Below are positions 4,954 to 14,100 of a stretch of 64,000 bases of DNA, in pieces. The translations under genes and the position numbers were made by a program. This stretch comes from a virus. The DNA lies in the IMG/VR virus record IMGVR_UViG_3300032893_000027, positions 1 to 64,000 of that record; one strand, written 5' to 3'. Every line of letters starts with the position of its first letter. Position 1 is the first letter of the stretch. The notes below the pieces were generated by a model that did not search any database, was not told the DNA's origin, and saw only the letters and a list, made by a program, of their open reading frames with translations.

Positions 4954-5069
4954 TCCAACTCTCCTTTTGTTTCCGATAGCTTAGCTGATTCGGTCATTCG
5001 GTGAAATTAATTTGACATTTTGTCCACAACATGCCTAACACAGTAGATAGGTGGCAACGACCACCACGT

Positions 5070-5112
5070 TCTCTCTCTTCTTCCCTCCTCTGGAGAGGGA
5101 AGAAGAGAGAGA
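5070..5112. promoter_or_regulatory. Pyrimidine/purine hairpin upstream of the rightward operon
   Basis: TCTCTCTCTTCTTCCCTC-CTCTGGA-GAGGGAAGAAGAGAGAGA; related hairpin at 62576-62617. Confidence 0.45.
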
Positions 5113-5139
5113 CAGACAACACCGCAAACAGGAGAAAGC

Positions 5140-5895
5140 ATGAGTAAGCCATTTAAGATTGGGATTGACGTCGATAAGTCTAGCCTCGGTGAGGTGATGG
5201 AAGTGCTCGACTCCATTCCCGGAGTATTGTCAATCCATCTGGCGTTGGGTGCGGCCAAGCAGCAACAGCAGTTGCCGTCGCCAGCACCGGGATATGATCC
5301 TGTTCAGAAACGGATCGAGACGAAGCGACGGATTGCATCTGGAAGGATGCCTCCCATGAGGCAGGTTTTCCTGCAAGCCCTTGTCAACGGCCCGCTTCAT
5401 TACCAGAAGATCGGTAGTCTTTTGGCCAAGAAAGGCTTCTCTTTTGCCTCGGTCCATTCAGCGGTAACGAAAATGTCATCGGAGAAACTCATTGAACGGG
5501 TTTCTCCGGGAACTTATCGCTTGACGGCAAAAGGCCGTGCCTTATTGAATTCTGACAATGTGAACCGGACGTACACCAGAAGGGCAATCAACAATAAGAA
5601 GGGCGTCAGGGCTTTGGTTCTGGACTTCCTCTCCAATGGATCACAGTCGGTGGATGCTGTCAGAGACGTTATTAAGGGCGCTGGGTTTGCACACAGCAGC
5701 CTTTACAACACTGTGCATCGGATGCGAGAGGAGGATCTGATCCGAAGGAATGGCGAACTTTATGAAATTACTGCAAAAGGCCGGAAGGAAATGGGCGCAG
5801 AGGCTGAGGCATTTGAATCCGTGGAAGATCAGCCAGAAGTCACCATGATGCCACTTCGGTCATCCCTTATGAATGATATGGAACATGGAGAATAG
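5140..5895 (+). CDS. Tandem winged-helix DNA-binding protein
   Basis: Two wHTH-like repeats ending LIERVSPGTYRLTAKGR and LIRRNGELYEITAKGR; GGAG RBS. Confidence 0.7.
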   Translation: MSKPFKIGIDVDKSSLGEVMEVLDSIPGVLSIHLALGAAKQQQQLPSPAPGYDPVQKRIETKRRIASGRMPPMRQVFLQALVNGPLHYQKIGSLLAKKGFSFASVHSAVTKMSSEKLIERVSPGTYRLTAKGRALLNSDNVNRTYTRRAINNKKGVRALVLDFLSNGSQSVDAVRDVIKGAGFAHSSLYNTVHRMREEDLIRRNGELYEITAKGRKEMGAEAEAFESVEDQPEVTMMPLRSSLMNDMEHGE

Positions 5896-5897
5896 CT

Positions 5898-6281
5898 TTG
5901 GCTGAAGTATATGTATACCGGACCTATCCTTTAACGACAAAGGATCAGGACCCAATCCTTGATGAGGTCGAATCAGTCCTCAAGAAGGAGAAGCTTGAGA
6001 AGAAGCCATCGACGGTTGCGAACTTAAGTGGTGTCAGCACCTCAACGCTCCGTAACTGGCTGATTTCTCGCACGACCCGCTGTCCTCGTTATTCAACGGT
6101 GGCAGCCGTCTTTGGAGCTATCGGCTATCAGCCGAAGTTTGAAAGGACGGGCCGCTTTGACCTTGAGTCGGAGCGCATTGATGCCAAGCGGTGGCAGGTC
6201 CGCCGCAAGGCAGCGAAGCTGGCGGCTCGTGGGTCGAAAGGCAAGAAATCAAACGGTAGTGGGCGGCATCTTTCCGCCTAA
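5898..6281 (+). CDS. XRE-like HTH protein
   Basis: VANLSGVSTSTLRNWL...PRYSTVAAVFGAIG. Confidence 0.7.
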   Translation: MAEVYVYRTYPLTTKDQDPILDEVESVLKKEKLEKKPSTVANLSGVSTSTLRNWLISRTTRCPRYSTVAAVFGAIGYQPKFERTGRFDLESERIDAKRWQVRRKAAKLAARGSKGKKSNGSGRHLSA

Positions 6282-6457
6282 GAGACCCGCTTGTCCAAGG
6301 TCCCGAACCGGCAAACTTCGCCTTGGATAGGACGCACCGTGTTAGCCGAGCGGTGGGTAATTCGGCGACTTATGGGCACGGATATGGCTGGGGTGCCCAC
6401 CGCCATCTATACCGCAGTTAAATATCCTAAAGGATGGCACATCAATAAGGGGGTATT

Positions 6458-6700
6458 ATGACCGACGAACTCACCGAGCGCGTAGCGCGGGCAATACACG
6501 ATAGCTTGAACGATCAATTGCCCTTTGACGATATGCTATTGCCAATTCGCGAGGAATTTTTAGCTGCTGCCCGCGCCGCCATTGAGGCGATGCATTCTGA
6601 CTTTCCCAAATGCAAACGCTGCGGCGCCCAAGGCGACGGCATTCTAGTCTGTGCGGGATGCTACGCGCCTGTTGAACAGCAACCGGAGCCGCCGAAATGA
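6458..6700 (+). CDS. Array ORF 1 (MTDELTERVARAI / ARAAIEA / CxxC-CxxC / PEPPK)
   Basis: ORF track; Zn-ribbon-like CKRC..CAGC insert. Confidence 0.75.
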   Translation: MTDELTERVARAIHDSLNDQLPFDDMLLPIREEFLAAARAAIEAMHSDFPKCKRCGAQGDGILVCAGCYAPVEQQPEPPK

Positions 6701-6981
6701 CTGACGACCTCACCGAGCGCGTGGCGCGGGCGATTCATGGGGCTTTTGGAGACGGCTGGGAAGCAATGGCCCGCGCCGCCATTGAGGCGATACCCGGCTG
6801 GCAACCGATAGAGACGGCGCCACTAGAAGAATTGGGACTTTTGTGGGGGCCAGATGTCAGGAGTGTTAGCGCGATTGGGCACATCTATGAACACACCGAC
6901 GGCAGCCGTGACGCTAGCAGCGCGATGCTTCATGGTTTCAAAATAACGCATTGGCACGCGCTACCGGAACCACCGAAATGA
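6697..6981 (+). CDS. Array ORF 2, DUF551-like C-terminus
   Basis: WQPIETAP...THWHALPEPPK; ATGA overlap. Confidence 0.75.
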   Translation: MTDDLTERVARAIHGAFGDGWEAMARAAIEAIPGWQPIETAPLEELGLLWGPDVRSVSAIGHIYEHTDGSRDASSAMLHGFKITHWHALPEPPK

Positions 6982-7142
6982 CCGACGACCTTACCGAGCT
7001 TATAGAACGAGCGAAGCGCGCGCTGGATGCGATGACGCCAGAACAGCGGGAGGAAATGTACCGCAAGCAACGTGACGGCTGGGTCAGGGCAGAAATGCAA
7101 TGGGCCAAGGATTTCCGCGAAGGGAAGTGCAAATATGACTGA
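6978..7142 (+). CDS. Array ORF 3 (MTDDLTELIERAK...)
   Basis: ATGA overlap with the previous ORF. Confidence 0.65.
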   Translation: MTDDLTELIERAKRALDAMTPEQREEMYRKQRDGWVRAEMQWAKDFREGKCKYD

Positions 7143-7469
7143 CGAACTCACCGAGCGCGTGGCGTGGGCGATTCTTAATCAGATGGGGGAAAAACCTTGA
7201 TGGATTATCACCGAGATATTGCCCGCGCCGCCATTGAGGCCATCAATGAGGATCGGATCATCCTTCGGCGCAAATGGACATCCGTAACTTCACCATCGAG
7301 AAACGCAACAAGGGGCCTAAGACCAAGAAGAAGGGAGGCAAATAATGCCCGACATTTTGGAACAGCTAGACCGCGCATGGACCGAGGATTTCAAGGCCAA
7401 TCTGATGCACTTTTGCGACTTAGCCGCGCAGGAAATCCGTCGGACGAGAGCCGAAATTTTGCGCCTTGA
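7135..7469 (+). pseudogene. Array ORF 4, split by a -1 frameshift at GGGGGAAAAA
   Basis: MTDELTERVAWAILNQMGEKP* (7135-7200); the ARAAIEA module continues in the -1 frame (7197-7469). Confidence 0.55.
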
Positions 7470-7650
7470 AGAAGACCTCGACCGCATGGGCGAAATTTTG
7501 CACGCGACCGAGGCCGAGCGCGACCGACTCCGCGCCAAGCTGGCCCTGCGCGCCGAGCGCGACCCGCCCCCATCGACCGACGCCCCGCTAACAATGAGCC
7601 AACAAGATATTTCGGCGGCGCTTCGCCAGACACAGAGCGAGGAAAGATGA
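7345..7650 (+). CDS. Hypothetical coiled-coil protein
   Basis: GGAGG RBS; ATGA coupling to the next ORF. Confidence 0.7.
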   Translation: MPDILEQLDRAWTEDFKANLMHFCDLAAQEIRRTRAEILRLEEDLDRMGEILHATEAERDRLRAKLALRAERDPPPSTDAPLTMSQQDISAALRQTQSEER

Positions 7651-7850
7651 GCGACGGCTGGCAACCGATAGAGACGGCGCCGAAGATTGAAGGTTATCGC
7701 ATTCTAGTTGCGCGCCCTTGTGCCACGATTGGAGCAAATATGGTGGGCGAGGATTATTGGACCGACAGGCTGCAAGGCGGATGCTGGGCTAAATCAACGC
7801 CAATGGCCCAGCCAACTCACTGGATGCCACTACCGGAGCCGCCGAAATGA
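7647..7850 (+). CDS. DUF551-like protein
   Basis: GWQPIETAPK...PTHWMPLPEPPK. Confidence 0.75.
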   Translation: MSDGWQPIETAPKIEGYRILVARPCATIGANMVGEDYWTDRLQGGCWAKSTPMAQPTHWMPLPEPPK

Positions 7851-8149
7851 ACGATGCCGTGAGACTTCTGCGTCTGGCCTGTCAGCGCATGTTCGATGGC
7901 GAGGAAAGAGAACAGATCCGCGCCTTTCTCCATGGTTATGACCGCGAGGCCGCCCCACAGCTTGGCTGGCAATCGATTGAGACAGCGCCGGAAAAAGAAA
8001 TGTTTATCTATTTTCAAAAGCGCGAAGGCCATCGCATGGTTGGTCTGGCCTATCGCGCTAAGGACGGGGGTTGGCGTGACAGTGAAGGAAATTGGAGCGA
8101 GTGCTTAAACCCGACCCACTGGATGCCACTACCGGAACCACCGAAATGA
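7847..8149 (+). CDS. DUF551-like protein with N-terminal extension
   Basis: EAAPQLGWQSIETAP...PTHWMPLPEPPK. Confidence 0.75.
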   Translation: MNDAVRLLRLACQRMFDGEEREQIRAFLHGYDREAAPQLGWQSIETAPEKEMFIYFQKREGHRMVGLAYRAKDGGWRDSEGNWSECLNPTHWMPLPEPPK

Positions 8150-8376
8150 CCGATGAACTCACCGAGCGCGTGGCGCGGGCGATCCACAGATGCCGGAACG
8201 ATGACAGCCTAAAATTTGAGGATTTGCACAAACTTAGCCAAGAAGCGTTCCGAAATGAAGCCCGCGCCGCCATTGAGGCATACGAGGCCGCCCCACAGCC
8301 CGCGCCTGCTGTTGAGCGTTGGCTGGCTGATCCAGATGTAAAGGAAGCTCTCCACCGTGATCCCCAAAAACCATAA
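8146..8376 (+). CDS. Array ORF (MTDELTERVARAI / ARAAIEA / EAAPQ)
   Basis: ATG at 8146 overlapping the previous stop. Confidence 0.7.
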   Translation: MTDELTERVARAIHRCRNDDSLKFEDLHKLSQEAFRNEARAAIEAYEAAPQPAPAVERWLADPDVKEALHRDPQKP

Positions 8377-9094
8377 TAATCCTCCAGAGATTCTGGAACT
8401 GGCAAGGGAGGTCACTCGCAATATCAGCGAGTGGTTTGCCGAGAACATTGGCGTTAGCAATGCGGATCAAGCCAAACAAGCCAAGCTTCAGATTGACAGA
8501 GCTAAGCTCTGCTTGAAAGATCTGGAAGATGAACGTGATGGTAAAGTAAGACCTCTCAATGAGAAGGTGCTGGCCATCAATGCTGACTATCGGGCGGTAA
8601 AGCGTCCGCTGGACACATTGTTGGGAGCCATGCTGTCTGATCTTAACAATTTCGTGAAGGCGGAGGAACAAAGACGTATTGATGCCGCAATTGAGGCGCA
8701 AAGGATTGCTGACGAGGCAGAACAAAAAGCCCGTGAGGCGGAACGAATCGAGAGGGAACTGCTTAGTAATGCCGCTCAGGGTGAGGTTGGGATTGATATT
8801 GCGGCAACAACTCTGGAGGCAGACCGTGCCTTTGCTGAGTTCGAAAAGGCTAAGCGGTCCGCAATCCGGGCTGAGGAAGGGCAAACGGTCATTATTCGGG
8901 GAGGGCTGGGGAAAGGGATCGGTCTCAGGGAAAAGGAGGTCTTGACCGTTGATGATCCCCTTGCGGCCATCACGGAAATGGGATTAACCGATAACGTTCA
9001 GCAGGCCATTATCACAGCGGCAAGAGCATACCGCAGGCTTAATAAGCGCCTTCCAAGTGGTATTTCAGCAACAATCGAAAGACGGGTTCAATGA
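8357..9094 (+). CDS. Coiled-coil phage protein (Gp157/Gam-like recombination-module protein)
   Basis: ERDGKVRPLNEKVLAINADYR coil; position upstream of the SSB-like gene. Confidence 0.55.
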   Translation: MIPKNHNNPPEILELAREVTRNISEWFAENIGVSNADQAKQAKLQIDRAKLCLKDLEDERDGKVRPLNEKVLAINADYRAVKRPLDTLLGAMLSDLNNFVKAEEQRRIDAAIEAQRIADEAEQKAREAERIERELLSNAAQGEVGIDIAATTLEADRAFAEFEKAKRSAIRAEEGQTVIIRGGLGKGIGLREKEVLTVDDPLAAITEMGLTDNVQQAIITAARAYRRLNKRLPSGISATIERRVQ

Positions 9095-9612
9095 GCGAAT
9101 CAATTACAGTTGAAAGGGTTTATCAGCCCCGCGAAGGCAAGAAGTATGGGTCGGTCAAGGATACCACCGGCAAGTTCTGGGATGTGTGGTATCAGAGCCT
9201 TCCGGACTTTACGGCTGGCGGTACCTATATCATCAATGAGGCTGCCTCTCGGGAGTATGATGGTAAGACCTATTGGACCATTAAGAAGTATCAAAAGGTT
9301 GTGAGTTCCAGCGCCCCCAAGACTAATGGGGCAGCGGCTCCATCACATACATTTGATGACAATACCCGGCGAATGGACATATTCATCTGCGGGGCAATGA
9401 ATAGTATCTTATCGAATCCGAACACGTCCACAGGTCCACTGGACTTGCGGCTTATGGACATTGTGGAGTTGCTTCAAACCTTTAAGCAGGCGTGGCTGGC
9501 TGTCTTTGGCCCCGCGCCGATCCCGGTCAAGAAGCCCGATCTGATCTCAACGACGACTGCTCCACCTCCTCAACACAATGAGGACATGAATGATGACCGG
9601 ATACCCTTCTAG
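9091..9612 (+). CDS. Putative single-stranded DNA-binding protein
   Basis: OB-like N-terminus and acidic tail ending DDRIPF. Confidence 0.55.
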   Translation: MSESITVERVYQPREGKKYGSVKDTTGKFWDVWYQSLPDFTAGGTYIINEAASREYDGKTYWTIKKYQKVVSSSAPKTNGAAAPSHTFDDNTRRMDIFICGAMNSILSNPNTSTGPLDLRLMDIVELLQTFKQAWLAVFGPAPIPVKKPDLISTTTAPPPQHNEDMNDDRIPF

Positions 9613-9919
9613 GCCGTGGTCTGATGTTTTTGAAGAAGTTGGAAGCGATTGGGCGGATAAAGAGGCCGCCGCCCAATTGCTAGAAAATTGCCGCTCCGCT
9701 GTCATGGCGGAATGGTGTGCCGATCAGGGCGACATTCCGGTCAATAAAGCGGAACAGAAGGTCAAGGCATCGCCGGAGTGGAGAGATTATAATGAGAGAA
9801 TGGTCGAGGCGAGGCGCTTGGCTAATCGTGCCAAAATCAAAATGGAGAGCGTCAAGATGCGGTCCATGGAACAGCACGCTAAGGAGGCTAACTATCGTGC
9901 TGAAAGCCGTCTAGCATGA
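9590..9919 (+). CDS. Helical phage protein (UvsY-like, tentative)
   Basis: KAEQKVKASPEWRDYNERMVEAR pattern. Confidence 0.45.
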   Translation: MMTGYPSRPWSDVFEEVGSDWADKEAAAQLLENCRSAVMAEWCADQGDIPVNKAEQKVKASPEWRDYNERMVEARRLANRAKIKMESVKMRSMEQHAKEANYRAESRLA

Positions 9920-10212
9920 GTGAGACCCGCTGTCCCTATTGTAAGGGTGAAATTGCCCCCGGCTCTGAACTTATGTTCAAGCTGACGACGCGGCAGTTTA
10001 GGGTTTACAACGCTGTCATTAACAGCGGCCCAGAGGGGATTTCAGTCGAGGAACTTATCAAAGAGTGTTTACCGGGGAAGTCCAAGACCACTATCAGGAC
10101 TTGCGTCAAGGCGGTGAACGACCGAATCGGGCCGCTGGTTATTAGGTCAAGAGGAGGTCGATATCATTTGGGACGAGCACATTCGGAGGGCGAGAATGAG
10201 GGTGACGGGTGA
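9916..10212 (+). CDS. Winged-helix DNA-binding protein
   Basis: CPYC N-terminus and OmpR-like wHTH (TIRTCVKAVN..IRSRGGRY). Confidence 0.55.
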   Translation: MSETRCPYCKGEIAPGSELMFKLTTRQFRVYNAVINSGPEGISVEELIKECLPGKSKTTIRTCVKAVNDRIGPLVIRSRGGRYHLGRAHSEGENEGDG

Positions 10213-10303
10213 TATAGCCGAAATGCTGGCGTGGATCTATGCTATCATAGCTTTGGGTTTTTTAGCCTATGTGGTCACTGGAATATATAACTGGAACTGG
10301 TAG
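10196..10303 (+). CDS. 35-aa single-TM peptide (not in the ORF track)
   Basis: MRVTGDIAEMLAWIYAIIALGFLAYVVTGIYNWNW; GGAGGG RBS. Confidence 0.5.
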   Translation: MRVTGDIAEMLAWIYAIIALGFLAYVVTGIYNWNW

Positions 10304-10311
10304 ACAGATGA

Positions 10312-10701
10312 ATGGCCTTTCAGTACTATTGGGACAACGGCTTGTCATCTAGCCATCACATTGATACTGAAGGTCTTTTAGACATGGGGAACCCTGCTAA
10401 CCTGCAAAAGCTAGTTCAGCGAGTTCAACGCGGTAATGGTCTGCTCGATAAGGCAACCGGCCATAGTGACAAGGCGGATGCCGTCATGAACAACTTCGAG
10501 CAAACCTTGGGTAGATTCGAGGCCCATTTCGGGACTATTGAGGAGCATGACAAGCAATTGTCGGCGATCCTCACTGAAATGGGGGGTAATGGAGGTCCCG
10601 CGCTGTCGGACATGTTTCAATCTAGTTCGGCGGTCGCATCAACTGCTACACCCGTGACAGGGCCGATAGAGCCTTCCACTGGCGATCCTAAGAAGCTTTA
10701 A
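10312..10701 (+). CDS. Hypothetical protein
   Basis: ORF in the rightward operon. Confidence 0.6.
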   Translation: MAFQYYWDNGLSSSHHIDTEGLLDMGNPANLQKLVQRVQRGNGLLDKATGHSDKADAVMNNFEQTLGRFEAHFGTIEEHDKQLSAILTEMGGNGGPALSDMFQSSSAVASTATPVTGPIEPSTGDPKKL

Positions 10702-10718
10702 CCAACTCGGAGATCCTT

Positions 10719-11144
10719 ATGTTCGTAGAATCTGGTTCCAAGCCGGAACGTGATATTCTATCACTCGACAGTCTGATTAGCTGGCTAGAGACGAAGCCGA
10801 GGGGTGGGACTTACAATTATCAATTGCCTTGTGGCTGCCTCCTTGCCCAGTATTTCCAAGAAATGACTGGTTGTAAGCATATGGGCGTGACGTGCGTTTC
10901 ATATGGCCCTATGAAGATTAACAGATGGATTGACGACGTGCCGGGCTCAATCAGGGGCGATCTTCCAGATGGTTGGGATCGGGTTGCAAGATCATACAAC
11001 GCAAACGACAAAGGTAATTGGACCTATGGCATGGCCCTACAGCGTGCCATGGCCCTTAGGGCTGAGATTGAGAAGCGAACTTCCGCGCCAAAGCCACTAT
11101 CAGCGGGTCGCCTCTTAGAGCGGCTTTTTTCCCTAGTAGCCTGA
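10719..11144 (+). CDS. Hypothetical protein
   Basis: GGAG RBS; WLETKP..YNY...GCLLAQY. Confidence 0.6.
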   Translation: MFVESGSKPERDILSLDSLISWLETKPRGGTYNYQLPCGCLLAQYFQEMTGCKHMGVTCVSYGPMKINRWIDDVPGSIRGDLPDGWDRVARSYNANDKGNWTYGMALQRAMALRAEIEKRTSAPKPLSAGRLLERLFSLVA

Positions 11145-14100
11145 CATAATGGTTAAACTCGTCCCTGTTCATCTCTTTGAACAGGGACTTCTTATCGTTG
11201 TCATCGAGTCTCTGGAACATGGAATCCATGCCCTTGCCGGGTTCCATCTTCTTGATCTGGTCGGTCTTGACGCCTAGTTCCCGAAGCTTGATGGCAGCCT
11301 TCTTCATACCCTCGTCATCGTGACGCTGCTTGGCGGCCATGTAGTCGGTTCGGGCATCAAACTTCTCTTGCCACTTAGCACCTGTCTCGAATGGCTTCTC
11401 AGAGGCAGCGACATGGTGGGCAAAGAGGTATTGAATCCGGTTCTCCATTGGAGACTTGGAGACATAACCCGGTGCTGGTCCAAAGCCCAACAGAGGCATG
11501 TAGACGTCTTGGTCGGTGATCTGCTTGGGAATATCGGTGGGACCATAGGGCTTGCCGCTCAGTTGCAAAGCACGCCGTGCCCCAACCACGGATATAGGAT
11601 AAGCCTGATCTCCGATCAGGTGTTTCCCTAACTGATAGGCTTGCTTATAGCCCGGAGCGGTTTCGTCAAACAGCTTGTTCCCGAAATAGTCCCGGTTATG
11701 GATCATTTCGGAAATGGGCTGAAACATCAGCTTGTTCCAGAACATCTCGCTGAGGCCAAACAGGGCGTTCTGTTGCTCCTGAATGTGCTTCATCGCCATG
11801 GGAACTTCGCGGGTATAGAAGGCGTTCGTTACCCGGCGAGGAGATCCGTCAGGGTTCAGACCGCCGATCCGAGGGAAGACATAATCCATGCCTTCCGCGT
11901 TCTCTCCGGTGAATGCCTTGTTGATTGCGGCATTAATGGCGAAGGCGCTCAAGGCATAGACGAACATATTCGTGGTCTTGTTCGTGACTTCACGAACAAG
12001 CTTCTGAGTTGGATTAGGATTGTCCATCAAGCGCCGAGCAATCGGTGCAAAGGTTCCACCCCCGAACTCCCGCATAAAACCGAGGTTCCATCCCAATGAT
12101 AAAAAAGATCCTATGGCGGCGTCCTTTAAGGTCCGGTTCCAGAAAAGCCCTCCGTAGAACATTTCTCCGAAACGATTATCTATTTGTTTACCTAAAGCCC
12201 GCAGGGCGACCCGCCTATTGGTGTCATCTTGTATCAAGTCCGGGCGCCGTCTTAGGAGGGCCGCCGCTTCCCTCTCGGCGGCGGCCATTTTCAGATTAGG
12301 AATCCAATGGTCAAACAGAGCATGCTGAAGTATTCCAACGCTACGAAAAATAGCACCGGCTGCTCCCGGTATAGCCTTGATATAGTTGTTATTAGCGATG
12401 GCATTGGTGAAGTCCCCCTTACCCCTGTGACGGAGTTCCTCTGATAGCTGGGCGCTGAGCCCCATTTCGTTGATGAGCTTAAGCCGGGCCTCGCCCTGCT
12501 TGGTCCGAGCTTCCCGAGGGGTTAGCCACTGATTGCGGATATCCTTGCCTCGATAGCCAGTGCCCACTGGAAGGGCCAGAAACGGGTCCATAACGCTTTG
12601 AAACACAGCCTCAGGTACAGCCGCGAAGCGACGAGCCAAGCCTTGCTGGCCCTTCCCAAAGGTTTCCCCGAGGGCACGGCTGAGGTTATTGACCTGAGCA
12701 ATGTGCATGACGTGGACAGGGTGGAACAAGGATAGGCCGAGCTTGAGAGGAACCCAGAGGTTCTTCAGCTTCATCCACCCCCTAAAGCCATCTCCAATCG
12801 CGTCAGTCCGGGACCAAAGACCTTTGGCCTCGACGCCGTTTTTCCAGATATCGGCAGCGTCCGGGGCAATCAGCCATTTCTCGCTATTAGGGGCCTTGAC
12901 CTCTTGCCAAGCATGGGTACCACCGACAAGGCTTGGCCGAGTCAGATAGGGCGCGGCCTTCTCGACAGGGGTGGCAACGCCAAGCTCCTGCATGTCTTGC
13001 AATAACTTGACCTTATTGGCCATATCATCGCCCGACATGAGACGATGGTTCACGAAGTCCATCAGGTTGTTAAACCGAGGCTCCAGTCCATTCGCCAATC
13101 CTAGTTGAATGGCGTCGTAAGTACGAGACTTCTGGAACCATTCCGGTCCCATCGTTTTAATCATATTATCGGTCGAGAAGATATTCTTGGCCCGATCCTC
13201 ATCCTTCCAAGCATGCGGAAAGTAATCAGAGAAATACGACGCCTTTGAGCCGAACTTCTTTTCGTATTCGTAGTTATTGTCTAGCCACTTGCGAATGTCA
13301 CTTCGCATCTGGTCAATCCAAGGACCATGCTTGGCCACCAAGTCTTGGGGTGTGTGCTGGCCGGTTTCGGCCGCATCAATGATCCGCAATTGGTCTGTAT
13401 CGAATGGAAGCTTGTTGAGCTTCTTCCACCATTGATAGCCTTGACGCTGAATGGCGTCACGATCTCTGGCCCGCTCAGAGACATACTTGGCTACCGCAAT
13501 ATCGGTTCGTGCCGCGCCTTCGGAGCGCTGCTCAGGAGCAATGTTCTGAAGGAACCATTCCTTAATTCGGCCGCCTTTTGGTGGCATAGGCGGAGGTGCC
13601 ATCGCCAAGAAGCTTTCCTCACGGAACTTCTCACGCTGGGTCCTCGCCTGTTCCTCCAAGGTTGCCTTCTTGGTTGGATCTGGTTCAGCCTCAGCCTGCT
13701 GTTCCAGCAGTTCAGCTTGTTGCTGATGCTGCTGAGCCCGTTGCGGAGCCAGATGAGTATCGACCTCATGTGCTGCCATCTCAGCCAGATCGTCCGCTCT
13801 GGACCGCTTCCGCATCACTTCTGCTGGACTCAGGTTCGGGTCCAATGCGTCCTGCCGAAGCTGATGGGCTTCAGCAAGTTTTGAATTCACGCTGGATTGA
13901 ACTTCGGCCGAGGTCGGCTTAGGTGTGGCTTGGGCCTCAGGTTCACCCCGGAGAACCATATGACCCACAGCAGGTACAGCCGTACCAACAGCCCCCTGTG
14001 CATAAGCCTGACCAAGACCTTCCGTAACCGGCTTTTCGTCAATTACATTCTTGGTCGCTTGCTCGGCCATACCAATGCCGGGCTGAACGCCGAAGGCTTG

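What the first reader, a model, noticed from the sequence alone, without database searches (positions are those of the whole stretch)
6458..8376. Module-shuffled mini-gene array: five short DNA repeats recombined around unique inserts
Seen: module A (ATGACyGAyGAmCTyACCGAGC.., MTD[ED]LTERVARAI) at 6458, 6697, 6978 (partial), 7135 and 8146. Module B (GCCCGCGCCGCCATTGAGGC, ARAAIEA), identical at 6569, 6769, 7221 and 8260. Module C (GGCTGGCAACCGATAGAGACGGCGCC, GWQPIETAP) at 6796 and 7656, with a variant at 7964. Module D (..CCGGArCCrCCGAAATGA, PEPPK*) ending at 6700, 6981, 7850 and 8149, each supplying the next ATG. Module E (CGAGGCCGCCCCACAGC) at 7945 and 8283. The ORFs use different combinations (A-B-D, A-B-C-D, A, A-B, C-D, E-C-D, A-B-E) with unrelated sequence in between. 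DNA identity that includes wobble positions implies recent recombination or conversion. Inference: an in-frame cassette-exchange system in which the repeats act as crossover points while preserving frame and translational coupling, generating variable small proteins. It lies directly upstream of the SSB-like and recombination-type genes.
Basis: partly seen in the sequence, partly recalled or inferred. Interest (0 to 1): 0.82.

Follow-up and report, generated by a model that had tools for sequence, protein, structure and literature searches.

The report
Mosaic DUF551 small-gene family array
The repeated DNA blocks are real, but they are the conserved motifs of one small two-part phage protein family that has multiplied into a row of about seven genes and been reshuffled over evolutionary time, which is ordinary phage mosaicism and not a dedicated cassette-swapping machine.

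Summary
Modules A to E sit at the stated coordinates, occur nowhere else in the complete 75-kb wetland phage genome, and never appear in shuffled sequence.

The modules are not free-standing recombination sites.
- C and D are the N- and C-terminal motifs of the Pfam domain DUF551.
- A and B are the two helices of an unnamed N-terminal hairpin domain.
- The fusion A-B-C-D recurs in at least 10 protein clusters elsewhere.

The array is a lineage-specific tandem expansion of this family. It holds two DUF551 fusions (one A-B-C-D), one split copy, one solo DUF551 and three A-headed variants. All are translationally coupled.

Codon identity at shared residues is 71% inside modules and 37.5% outside, where 33-35% is expected by chance. 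The three DUF551 cores belong to different subfamilies, yet their flanking motifs are nearly identical in DNA. A relative in a fourth metagenome carries an intact A-B-C-D gene where the window has a 414-nt insert exactly between B and C. Other contigs in the habitat share only the modules.

So recombination or gene conversion at the motifs is supported on evolutionary time. An active exchange system is not: the repeats are all direct, there is no reverse transcriptase and no tyrosine or serine recombinase, and no rearranged variants were seen.

The scan has already noted similar DUF551/Ea22 arrays on other DNA.

The parts
6458..6700 (+). g6458, 80 aa: A helix, variable loop, B helix, then a CxxC...CxxC zinc-ribbon-like segment and a PEPPK tail. 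It ends in a type-1 junction.
   Evidence: A Shine-Dalgarno sequence (AAGGGGG) lies upstream. No Pfam family.
6697..6981 (+). g6697, 94 aa: full-length family member A-B-C-core-D (helical hairpin plus DUF551). Its start overlaps the previous stop (ATGA).
   Evidence: DUF551 scores 25.4 bits against a cut-off of 22. AlphaFold2 gives helices at residues 3-16 and 21-31 and a beta domain with pLDDT 90-97. Fused relatives include P0002/P0036 and P0025.
6978..7142 (+). g6978, 54 aa: a 22-nt A head (MTDDLTE) followed by a weakly A-like helix. It has no DUF551.
   Evidence: hhalign aligns residues 7-18 to the A helix only weakly (E 0.003, probability 10%).
7135..7240 (+). Broken 5' half of an A-B-C-D gene. 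The A module is in frame 0, which stops at TGA 7198. The B module lies in the -1 frame. A G5A5 run sits at 7185-7194.
   Evidence: A relative's contig (X4 record 26) carries net +7 nt here, which puts A and B in one frame.
7241..7654 (+). A 414-nt segment that is absent from the relative's gene. It lies exactly between the end of module B and the start of module C. It carries a 23-codon ORF, a strong Shine-Dalgarno sequence and g7345 (7345-7650, 101 aa, coiled-coil orphan).
   Evidence: The X4 joint runs from 7240 to 7655 with 6 nt in between. g7345 has one relative, P0071, at 79% identity.
7647..7850 (+). g7647, 67 aa: solo DUF551 (C-core-D), the 3' half of the split gene. Its new start codon is supplied by the end of the insert and overlaps the g7345 stop (ATGA).
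   Evidence: DUF551 scores 31.7 bits. It is 97% identical to the 3' part of the relative's fused gene. The nearest core is P0025.
7847..8149 (+). g7847, 100 aa: a 39-residue N-terminal region with no detectable relation to A-B, then E linker, C, core and D.
   Evidence: DUF551 scores 33.5 bits. Its core is 68% identical to P0050, which has a different N-terminus. hhalign of the N-terminus against the A-B profile is negative.
8146..8376 (+). g8146, 76 aa: A, loop, B, E linker and a short tail. It has no DUF551.
   Evidence: The 46-nt B-E stretch at 8263-8308 occurs at 100% identity in other contigs of the habitat with unlike flanks.
6569..6588 (+). Module B (ARAAIEA). The same exact 20-mer also lies at 6769-6788, 7221-7240 and 8260-8279.
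6796..6821 (+). Module C (GWQPIETAP, the first DUF551 motif). It is identical at 7656-7681, and a variant lies at 7964-7989.
6683..6700 (+). D-to-A gene junction, containing the PEPPK codons, a GGAG or GGAA Shine-Dalgarno-like element 8 nt before the ATG, and an ATGA stop/start overlap. Type 1 (GGAGCCG) lies at 6683 and 7833. Type 2 (GGAACCA) lies at 6964 and 8132.
7945..7961 (+). Module E (EAAPQ linker). It is identical at 8283-8299.
8357..9612 (+). Downstream neighbours: a 245-aa coiled-coil protein and a 173-aa protein that ends in DDRIPF, an SSB-type acidic tail.
   Evidence: The 245-aa protein matches phrog_10477 'exonuclease' at E 7.5e-7 only. The protein atlas gives only unnamed phage clusters. 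The 173-aa protein has no family hit. Its tail motif was read, and the homologue in L051 ends in DDDIPF.

Best explanation
This is a lineage-specific tandem expansion, about seven members in 1.9 kb, of one small two-domain phage protein family. It lies in the rightward early operon of a complete uncultured wetland phage.

The family skeleton has four parts:
- an N-terminal helical hairpin whose two helices are modules A and B;
- a short linker, which in two genes is module E;
- a DUF551 beta domain whose first and last motifs are modules C and D;
- a stop codon that overlaps the next gene's ATG.

The 'unique inserts' are the hypervariable loop between A and B, the DUF551 core, or alternative C-terminal pieces.

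Shown: the motif-coding segments are much more alike in DNA than the rest. The DUF551 cores come from different, anciently separated subfamilies. Relatives differ by events whose breakpoints fall on module edges.

Inferred: the motif-coding segments have served as short homology patches for homologous recombination or gene conversion. This would act between paralogs and between co-infecting relatives, reassorting N-terminal domains, cores and tails in frame. Nucleotide-level constraint at the D/A junction adds to the identity there, because the junction holds a Shine-Dalgarno sequence, the ATGA overlap and the first codons of the next gene.

This is a by-product of phage mosaic evolution acting on a paralog array. 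It is not a programmed switching device. The proteins are probably early host-directed binding proteins, for host takeover or counter-defence. That function is inference only.
For: - Domain identity. DUF551 is above the Pfam cut-off in three ORFs. The A/B motifs recur as an unnamed family in unrelated IMG/VR contigs. An exhaustive HMMER search returns 68 representatives, and at least 10 have the A-B-C-D fusion. AlphaFold2 shows a helical hairpin plus a confident beta domain.
- DNA homogeneity. Same-residue codons are identical in 75/106 pairs inside modules and 27/72 outside, against expectations of 35 and 25. Array codons outside the modules have the genome's GC3, so local codon bias does not explain the difference. 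Within-window codon identity for C is 0.73 and for D 0.59, against 0.48 and 0.34 versus foreign copies. Of 251 ARAAIEAM peptides in IMG/VR, about 10 use the exact 20-mer.
- Mosaic history. The cores of g6697, g7647 and g7847 score 84, 69 and 153 against P0003, P0025 and P0050, but only -3 to 8 against each other. P0050 shares g7847's core but not its N-terminus.
- Breakpoints. The X4 contig joins 7240 to 7655 and reads as one open A-B-C-D frame.
- Shared joints. Many low-depth habitat contigs match only the modules and then diverge. One such stretch is the 46-nt B-E segment at 100% identity.
- Nothing that would mark a dedicated system. There is no RT and no Tyr or Ser recombinase, no Rfam RNA, and no internal promoter or terminator signal above background.
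- Literature. Phage recombinases make mosaics at short diverged homologies, and small gene fragments are exchanged more often than whole modules (PMC3945230). DUF551 is described as a portable domain in mosaic Ea22 variants (PMC10834534).
Against: - The paralog pairs used for the codon statistics are not independent. Many 'identical residues' outside the modules may be chance alignment columns. The inside/outside contrast therefore cannot separate conversion from recent duplication with replaced interiors.
- The modules are only 17-26 nt long, and 46 nt for B-E. That is short for RecA-dependent exchange, and no phage annealing recombinase was identified in the genome.
- Other phages with two DUF551 copies do not consistently show homogenised C motifs.
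- The function of the proteins is untested. Fold matches are only weak and Tudor/SH3-like, with Z at most 3.2.
Confidence: 0.7

Rival explanations
1. This is an active, programmed in-frame cassette-exchange system. The short repeats would be dedicated crossover sites used at high frequency to generate variable small proteins within a phage population.
For: - Exchange between like modules would always keep the reading frame.
- Module DNA is homogenised.
- The B-E module is shared at 100% identity with other genomes in the habitat, and the assembly graph branches there.
Against: - All repeats are direct, so recombination between them gives deletions or duplications, not swaps.
- The complete genome has no site-specific recombinase and no reverse transcriptase.
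- There are no silent donor cassettes. Every copy has its own start codon and is translationally coupled.
- The array is identical wherever the contigs of the metagenomes holding the phage cover it, and no rearranged contig appears at the phage's depth.
- The modules are ordinary conserved protein motifs that are mostly found in single-copy genes elsewhere.
Confidence: 0.05
2. This is a static paralog array with no recombination at the modules. Fairly recent tandem duplications would have been followed by very fast diversification of the loops and cores through point mutation and indels. Module DNA identity would be residual shared ancestry plus nucleotide-level selection on the translation-initiation junction.
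For: - A, C and D carry synonymous differences, as expected for a moderately old duplication.
- The D/A junction contains a GGAG Shine-Dalgarno sequence and an ATGA overlap.
- The two junction alleles alternate 1-2-1-2 along the array, which hints at duplication of a multi-gene unit.
Against: - Each of the three DUF551 cores has much closer relatives in other genomes than in its own array. The cores were therefore not produced by in-place divergence after a recent duplication.
- P0050 combines g7847's core with an unrelated N-terminus.
- In the X4 relative the C-D half is 97% identical while the adjacent A-B half is about 80% identical, with a 414-nt indel exactly at the B/C edge.
- Modules B and C are internal to the genes and are not explained by translation-initiation constraint.
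Confidence: 0.2
3. This is an assembly artefact. The metagenome assembler would have threaded several co-occurring related phages together through the shared short repeats, so the array would not exist as one molecule.
For: - Other genomes in the same samples share the modules.
- The Logan contig graph breaks at 8279-8292, inside B-E, where depth rises from about 30 to 72.
Against: - An independent assembly of run X2 (Logan) spans 5000-8292 in a single 7,560-nt contig with 0 differences and flat depth 30.8. A second contig continues from 8279, also with 0 differences.
- X3 contigs agree over 5214-6735 and 7811-8289.
- All sampled 31-mers of 6300-8500 are present in two runs.
- The modules are far shorter than a sequencing read.
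Confidence: 0.03

Closest known systems
DUF551 (Pfam PF04448) proteins of phages and prophages, such as the C-terminal domain of Stx-phage Ea22 variant V2 and E. coli CPS-53 YfdS (PMC10834534)
   Same: Three ORFs pass the Pfam cut-off. As in the Ea22 variants, the domain behaves as a portable C-terminal module joined to different N-terminal parts, in an early accessory region. The genes are small and of unknown function.
   Different: The N-terminal partner here is an unnamed helical hairpin (ERVARAI...ARAAIEA), not the Ead/Ea22 coiled coil. The host phage is an uncultured 75-kb wetland phage. About seven family members lie in tandem, whereas most relatives found here carry one copy.
Phage genome mosaicism through homologous recombination at short, diverged homologies, as in the lambdoid 'linker/boundary sequence' model and relaxed recombination by Rad52-like recombinases (PMC3945230 and its refs 19 and 20)
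   Same: Short patches of high identity are flanked by unrelated sequence. Breakpoints fall at those patches. Gene fragments rather than whole modules are exchanged.
   Different: The patches here lie inside genes, in motif-coding segments, as well as at gene boundaries. They are repeated within one genome. No annealing recombinase was identified in this phage, and no exchange was observed directly.
Programmed variation systems: shufflons and invertases (Rci, Hin/Cin), diversity-generating retroelements, and gene-conversion antigenic variation (pilE/pilS, vlsE)
   Same: Conserved segments frame variable segments of a protein, and exchange would keep the frame.
   Different: There are no inverted repeats, no site-specific recombinase, no reverse transcriptase or template repeat, and no silent cassettes feeding a single expression site.

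Membership tests
DUF551 (PF04448) | Match to the Pfam profile above the gathering score | tested here: met
   g6697 scores 25.4 bits, g7647 31.7 bits and g7847 33.5 bits against a cut-off of 22. PHROGs 924, 7704 and 60 also match.
DUF551 (PF04448) | Conserved end motifs: W-x-x-I-x-x-x-P at the start and T-H-W-x-P-L-P-x-P-P at the end of the domain | tested here: met
   In the alignment of 58 family members, W35, P42, T84, W86, P90 and P93 are invariant or nearly so. These motifs are modules C and D.
Unnamed 'ERVARAI...ARAAIEA' helical-hairpin family (no Pfam or NCBIfam model) | An N-terminal helix M-x-(D/E)-x-x-E-R-V-A-R-A-I, a variable loop, and a second helix A-R-A-A-I-E-A(-M) | tested here: met
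   g6458, g6697 and g8146 align with 8 unrelated IMG/VR proteins. The two helices are predicted at residues 3-16 and 21-31. No Pfam, PHROG or NCBIfam match was found. The canonical C-terminal half (REPT..M..AG...W.AMI.AAL) is absent from the window's copies.
Shufflon or invertase-type cassette switching | A site-specific tyrosine or serine recombinase encoded with the locus | tested here: not met
   PF00589 and PF00239 give 0 matches in the complete genome, and the control genomes respond.
Shufflon or invertase-type cassette switching | Inverted repeats flanking the invertible segments | tested here: not met
   All copies of each module are direct repeats on the + strand. The only inverted matches are the 9-12-nt A/B complementarity.
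Diversity-generating retroelement | A reverse transcriptase together with a template/variable repeat pair | tested here: not met
   PF00078 gives 0 matches in the complete genome. No long near-identical repeat pair was found.
Gene-conversion antigenic variation (one expression site plus silent cassettes) | Promoterless, start-less donor cassettes and a single expressed copy | tested here: not met
   Every copy except the broken 7135 remnant is a complete ORF with its own ATG and a stop/start overlap with its neighbour.
Phage mosaic joints formed by relaxed homologous recombination | Short high-identity patches flanked by unrelated sequence, with breakpoints between relatives falling at those patches | tested here: met
   
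Phage mosaic joints formed by relaxed homologous recombination | A phage-encoded annealing recombinase (Red-beta/RecT/Erf/Sak type) able to use short homologies | tested here: inconclusive
   No recognised recombinase family was found among the neighbouring ORFs. The 245-aa neighbour has only a PHROG 'exonuclease' label at E 7.5e-7 and unnamed atlas clusters. The rest of the genome was not scanned for these families.

The most novel reading that the evidence does not exclude
The codon-level sameness of the modules could itself be maintained by selection. It includes GC3 of 75% against 57% in the rest of the array and in the genome, identity across paralogs, and identity with co-occurring phages. 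On this reading the motif-coding DNA is a shared in-frame recombination scaffold. It would let a community of wetland phages and their paralog arrays continually reassort hypervariable loops and DUF551 cores of early host-directed proteins. That would be an evolvability device without a dedicated enzyme, possibly helped by the A/B complementary stem that encloses each variable loop.
Probability: 0.1. Interest if true: 0.7.

Novelty: new member of a known kind. Interest (0 to 1): 0.3.

Why it matters
The finding gives a clean, small example of how phage accessory proteins are built and rebuilt. The conserved motif-coding segments of a two-domain family act as in-frame joints, so N-terminal domains, cores and tails reassort between paralogs and between phages.

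It also defines an unnamed helical-hairpin domain that commonly partners DUF551. It shows one gene caught split by a 414-nt insertion exactly at a motif edge.

It does not reveal a new mechanism. Lambdoid Ea22/DUF551 regions behave the same way, and this scan has already flagged similar arrays elsewhere. The practical value is for annotation: these should be treated as one family with variable segments. The family is also a candidate for tests of early host-takeover or counter-defence functions.

Tried and rejected
- **Close relatives for synteny.** blastn of the array and tblastn of the 245-aa neighbour against 50,697 phage records found nothing. The viral-contig scan with the neighbour found nothing. 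The metagenome scan gave one 2.1-kb contig whose upstream gene is not an array member. Records of the window's own kin may be masked.
- **Tools and sources not available.** No RNA holder was listed among the sequencing runs.
- **RNA structure.** In all four A-B copies the minimum-energy RNA fold pairs the A segment GGCGCGGGCG with the B segment GCCCGCGCC. Only one copy folds better than shuffles (z scores 0.17, -1.26, -1.60 and -3.06). Only 1 of about 6 other family members keeps the complementarity. I rejected this as a conserved element. Rfam gave nothing in the array.
- **Programmed frameshift at the G5A5 run (7185-7194).** There is no canonical slippery heptamer in frame, and the relative has an ordinary in-frame gene with several indels. 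I read this as gene decay.
- **g7847 N-terminus as a diverged A-B domain.** hhalign was negative.
- **Fold-based function.** Foldseek against the PDB and VIA-wide gave only weak Tudor/SH3-like rows, with E at least 0.4 and Z at most 3.2. The profile search against PDB sequences gave nothing.
- **Within-genome homogenisation in other phages with two copies.** The sample was too small and the results were inconsistent.
- **Exact DNA of the D/A junction in IMG/VR.** There were 0 hits.
- **Spurious hits.** P0021 and P0052, the long multi-stretch hits, are unrelated repeat proteins.
Full report
**Context.** The window is the first 64 kb of a 75,366-bp virus record with a single contig and 51.6% G+C. 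It has direct terminal repeats and CheckV rates it 100% complete. Its large terminase is at best 46% identical to a spring-water metagenome phage. The DNA occurs in wetland metagenomes. The finding lies in a rightward block of genes (5140-11144). That block starts with two regulator-like proteins and ends at a strong terminator-like hairpin at 11161-11188.

**Observation.**
- The B 20-mer is exact four times, and the D junction pattern occurs four times. Neither occurs once in 100 dinucleotide shuffles.
- A six-frame motif scan of the whole genome finds these motifs only between 6458 and 8376.
- The genes overlap stop-to-start: ATGA at 6697, 6978, 7647, 7847 and 8146, ATGACTGA at 7135 and TAATG at 7345.
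- One correction is needed. At 7135 the A and B modules are in different frames, and the A frame stops at TGA 7198.

**What the modules are.**
- Pfam places C and D as the two ends of DUF551 in three ORFs, all above the curated cut-off.
- The exact B 20-mer occurs in 12 unrelated IMG/VR contigs. In about nine of them it sits in small proteins of one pattern: M..ERVARAI, a variable loop, ARAAIEAMREPT, a variable stretch, then W.AMI.AAL. These proteins have no Pfam or PHROG family.
- An exhaustive HMMER search with g6697 found 68 representative proteins. Many are solo DUF551 proteins, and at least ten have the same A-B-C-D fusion, typically reading ...ARAAI(E/A)AMPGWQPIETAP....
- AlphaFold2 on that alignment gives a helical hairpin, with A at residues 3-16 and B at 21-31 (pLDDT 62-71). 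It is followed by a confident small beta domain (pLDDT 90-97).
- Fold searches gave only weak Tudor/SH3-like rows.

The five 'DNA repeats' are therefore the conserved motif skeleton of a two-domain protein family. The 'inserts' are its hypervariable loop, its core, or alternative tails.

**The array.** It contains the following members.
- g6458: A-B, zinc-ribbon-like segment, PEPPK tail.
- g6697: A-B-C-D.
- g6978: the A head only, followed by a weakly A-like helix.
- A broken A-B remnant at 7135.
- g7345: an unrelated coiled-coil orphan.
- g7647: C-D alone.
- g7847: an N-terminus with no detectable relation to A-B, then E-C-D.
- g8146: A-B-E and a short tail.

Most relatives in viral contigs and in bacterial genomes carry a single copy. 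The bacterial hosts are mainly Alphaproteobacteria such as Roseomonas, Sphingobium, Mesorhizobium and Phenylobacterium.

**Is the DNA identity more than protein constraint?** Yes.
- The phage's codon usage is weakly biased.
- Across six paralog pairs, identical residues use the same codon in 75 of 106 cases inside modules, where 35 are expected. Outside modules the figure is 27 of 72, where 25 are expected, which is saturation. Fisher's test gives p = 1.4e-5, but the pairs are not independent.
- Array codons outside the modules have the genome's GC3 of 57%, while module codons reach 75%.
- Codon identity for C is 0.73 within the window and 0.48 against 39 foreign copies. For D the values are 0.59 and 0.34.
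- IMG/VR holds 251 ARAAIEAM peptides, but only about 10 use the window's exact codons. The window uses them four times out of four.

**Is it recent duplication or mosaic exchange?**
- The three DUF551 cores belong to different subfamilies. Each has a much closer relative elsewhere: P0003 (score 84), P0025 (score 69) and P0050 (68% identity, score 153). Paralog-to-paralog core scores are only -3 to 8.
- Despite this, g6697 and g7647 share 26 of 26 nt at C. That stretch includes the rare ATA codon.
- P0050 has g7847's core behind an unrelated N-terminus.
- In metagenome X4, one contig matches 7141-7240 at about 80% identity with a net +7 nt. It then has six letters, then 7655-7850 at 97% identity, and it skips 7241-7654. 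Applying the listed differences in a script gives one open 104-codon A-B-C-D frame.
- The window's 7135 remnant and g7647 are therefore the two halves of such a gene. They are separated by a 414-nt segment that carries g7345 and lies exactly between the last base of B and the first base of C. The 5' half has since lost its frame.
- Many low-depth contigs from the same habitat match only the modules and then run on into unlike sequence. One 46-nt B-E stretch is 100% identical in other genomes, and the Logan assembly graph branches there.

These points argue for recombination or conversion at the motif-coding segments over evolutionary time.

**Is it a system?** I found nothing that marks one.
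- The repeats are direct.
- There is no reverse transcriptase and no tyrosine or serine recombinase.
- There are no silent cassettes, no Rfam element, and no promoter or terminator signal above background within the array.
- An independent assembly of run X2 reproduces 5000-8292 and 8279-10000 without a single difference at flat depth. X3 agrees where it is covered. The array is therefore stable at contig resolution and is unlikely to be an assembly chimera.
- The 'recombination-type' neighbours are weak. The 245-aa protein has only a PHROG 'exonuclease' label and unnamed atlas clusters. The 173-aa protein has no family hit, although it ends in an SSB-like DDRIPF tail.

**Mechanism proposed.** Tandem duplication of an A-B-C-D gene with an overlapping stop and start explains the repeated D/A junction. 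That junction is also under nucleotide-level constraint, because the Pro-Glu codons supply a GGAG sequence 8 nt before the next ATG. Afterwards, homologous recombination or conversion at the motif-coding patches, plus at least one insertion, reassorted loops, cores and tails in frame. These events would have occurred among paralogs and with co-infecting relatives. This fits published work: phage recombinases make mosaics at short, diverged homologies, and fragments are exchanged more often than whole modules (PMC3945230). DUF551 has been described as a portable domain in mosaic Ea22 variants (PMC10834534). The scan's earlier notes reached the same verdict for E. coli prophage arrays.

**Function.** That these are early host-directed binding proteins is inference from position, small size, expansion and hypervariability.

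**Verdict.** This is a new member of a known kind, and the interest is low to moderate.

Noticed in passing
window 5067-5115: A near-perfect palindrome of about 18 bp per arm (CTCTCTCTTCTTCCCTC...GAGGGAAGAAGAGAGAG) lies in the divergent intergenic region just upstream of the first rightward gene (5140). It gives only spurious miRNA-type Rfam rows. It may be an operator or a bidirectional terminator.
   Followed up: partly
window 6723-6735/6765-6777, 6485-6496, 7159-7171/7218-7229, 8172-8183/8257-8268: The A-module segment GGCGCGGGCGAT is complementary to the B-module segment ATnGCCCGCGCC in all four A-B copies. Each variable loop is therefore enclosed by a 9-14-bp GC stem in the predicted RNA fold. 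Other family members do not conserve this (1 of about 6), and only one copy folds better than shuffles. It is probably a coincidence of the two Ala-Arg-Ala codon sets.
   Followed up: yes
window 6458-8376: Module codons have GC3 of 75%. The rest of the array and the genome's long ORFs have 57%. This would fit GC-biased conversion or import from higher-GC relatives, but the copies are not independent samples.
   Followed up: partly
window 6683, 6964, 7833, 8132: Two alleles of the D/A junction alternate along the array in the order 1-2-1-2: GGAGCCGCCG and GGAACCACCG. This hints at an old duplication of a multi-gene unit, although the cores between the junctions are unrelated.
   Followed up: partly
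window 9091-9612: The 173-aa protein ends in DDRIPF, and its 184-aa homologue in L051 ends in DDDIPF. This is the acidic tip typical of bacterial SSB proteins. No SSB or OB-fold family was detected by Pfam, NCBIfam, PHROGs or PDB sequence search.
   Followed up: partly
window 7185-7194: A G5A5 homopolymer run lies just before the TGA that ends the A frame of the broken 7135 gene. Independent contigs agree on the sequence, so this is probably a real frame loss rather than a sequencing error.
   Followed up: partly
window 6608-6660: In g6458, a CxxC...CxxC zinc-ribbon-like segment replaces the DUF551 core between module B and the PEPPK tail. It has a weak hit to a PHROG 'DNA binding protein' (E 0.0065).
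   Followed up: no
window 11161-11188: A strong terminator-like hairpin (11-bp stem, T-rich tail) lies where the rightward early block meets the leftward structural block.
   Followed up: no
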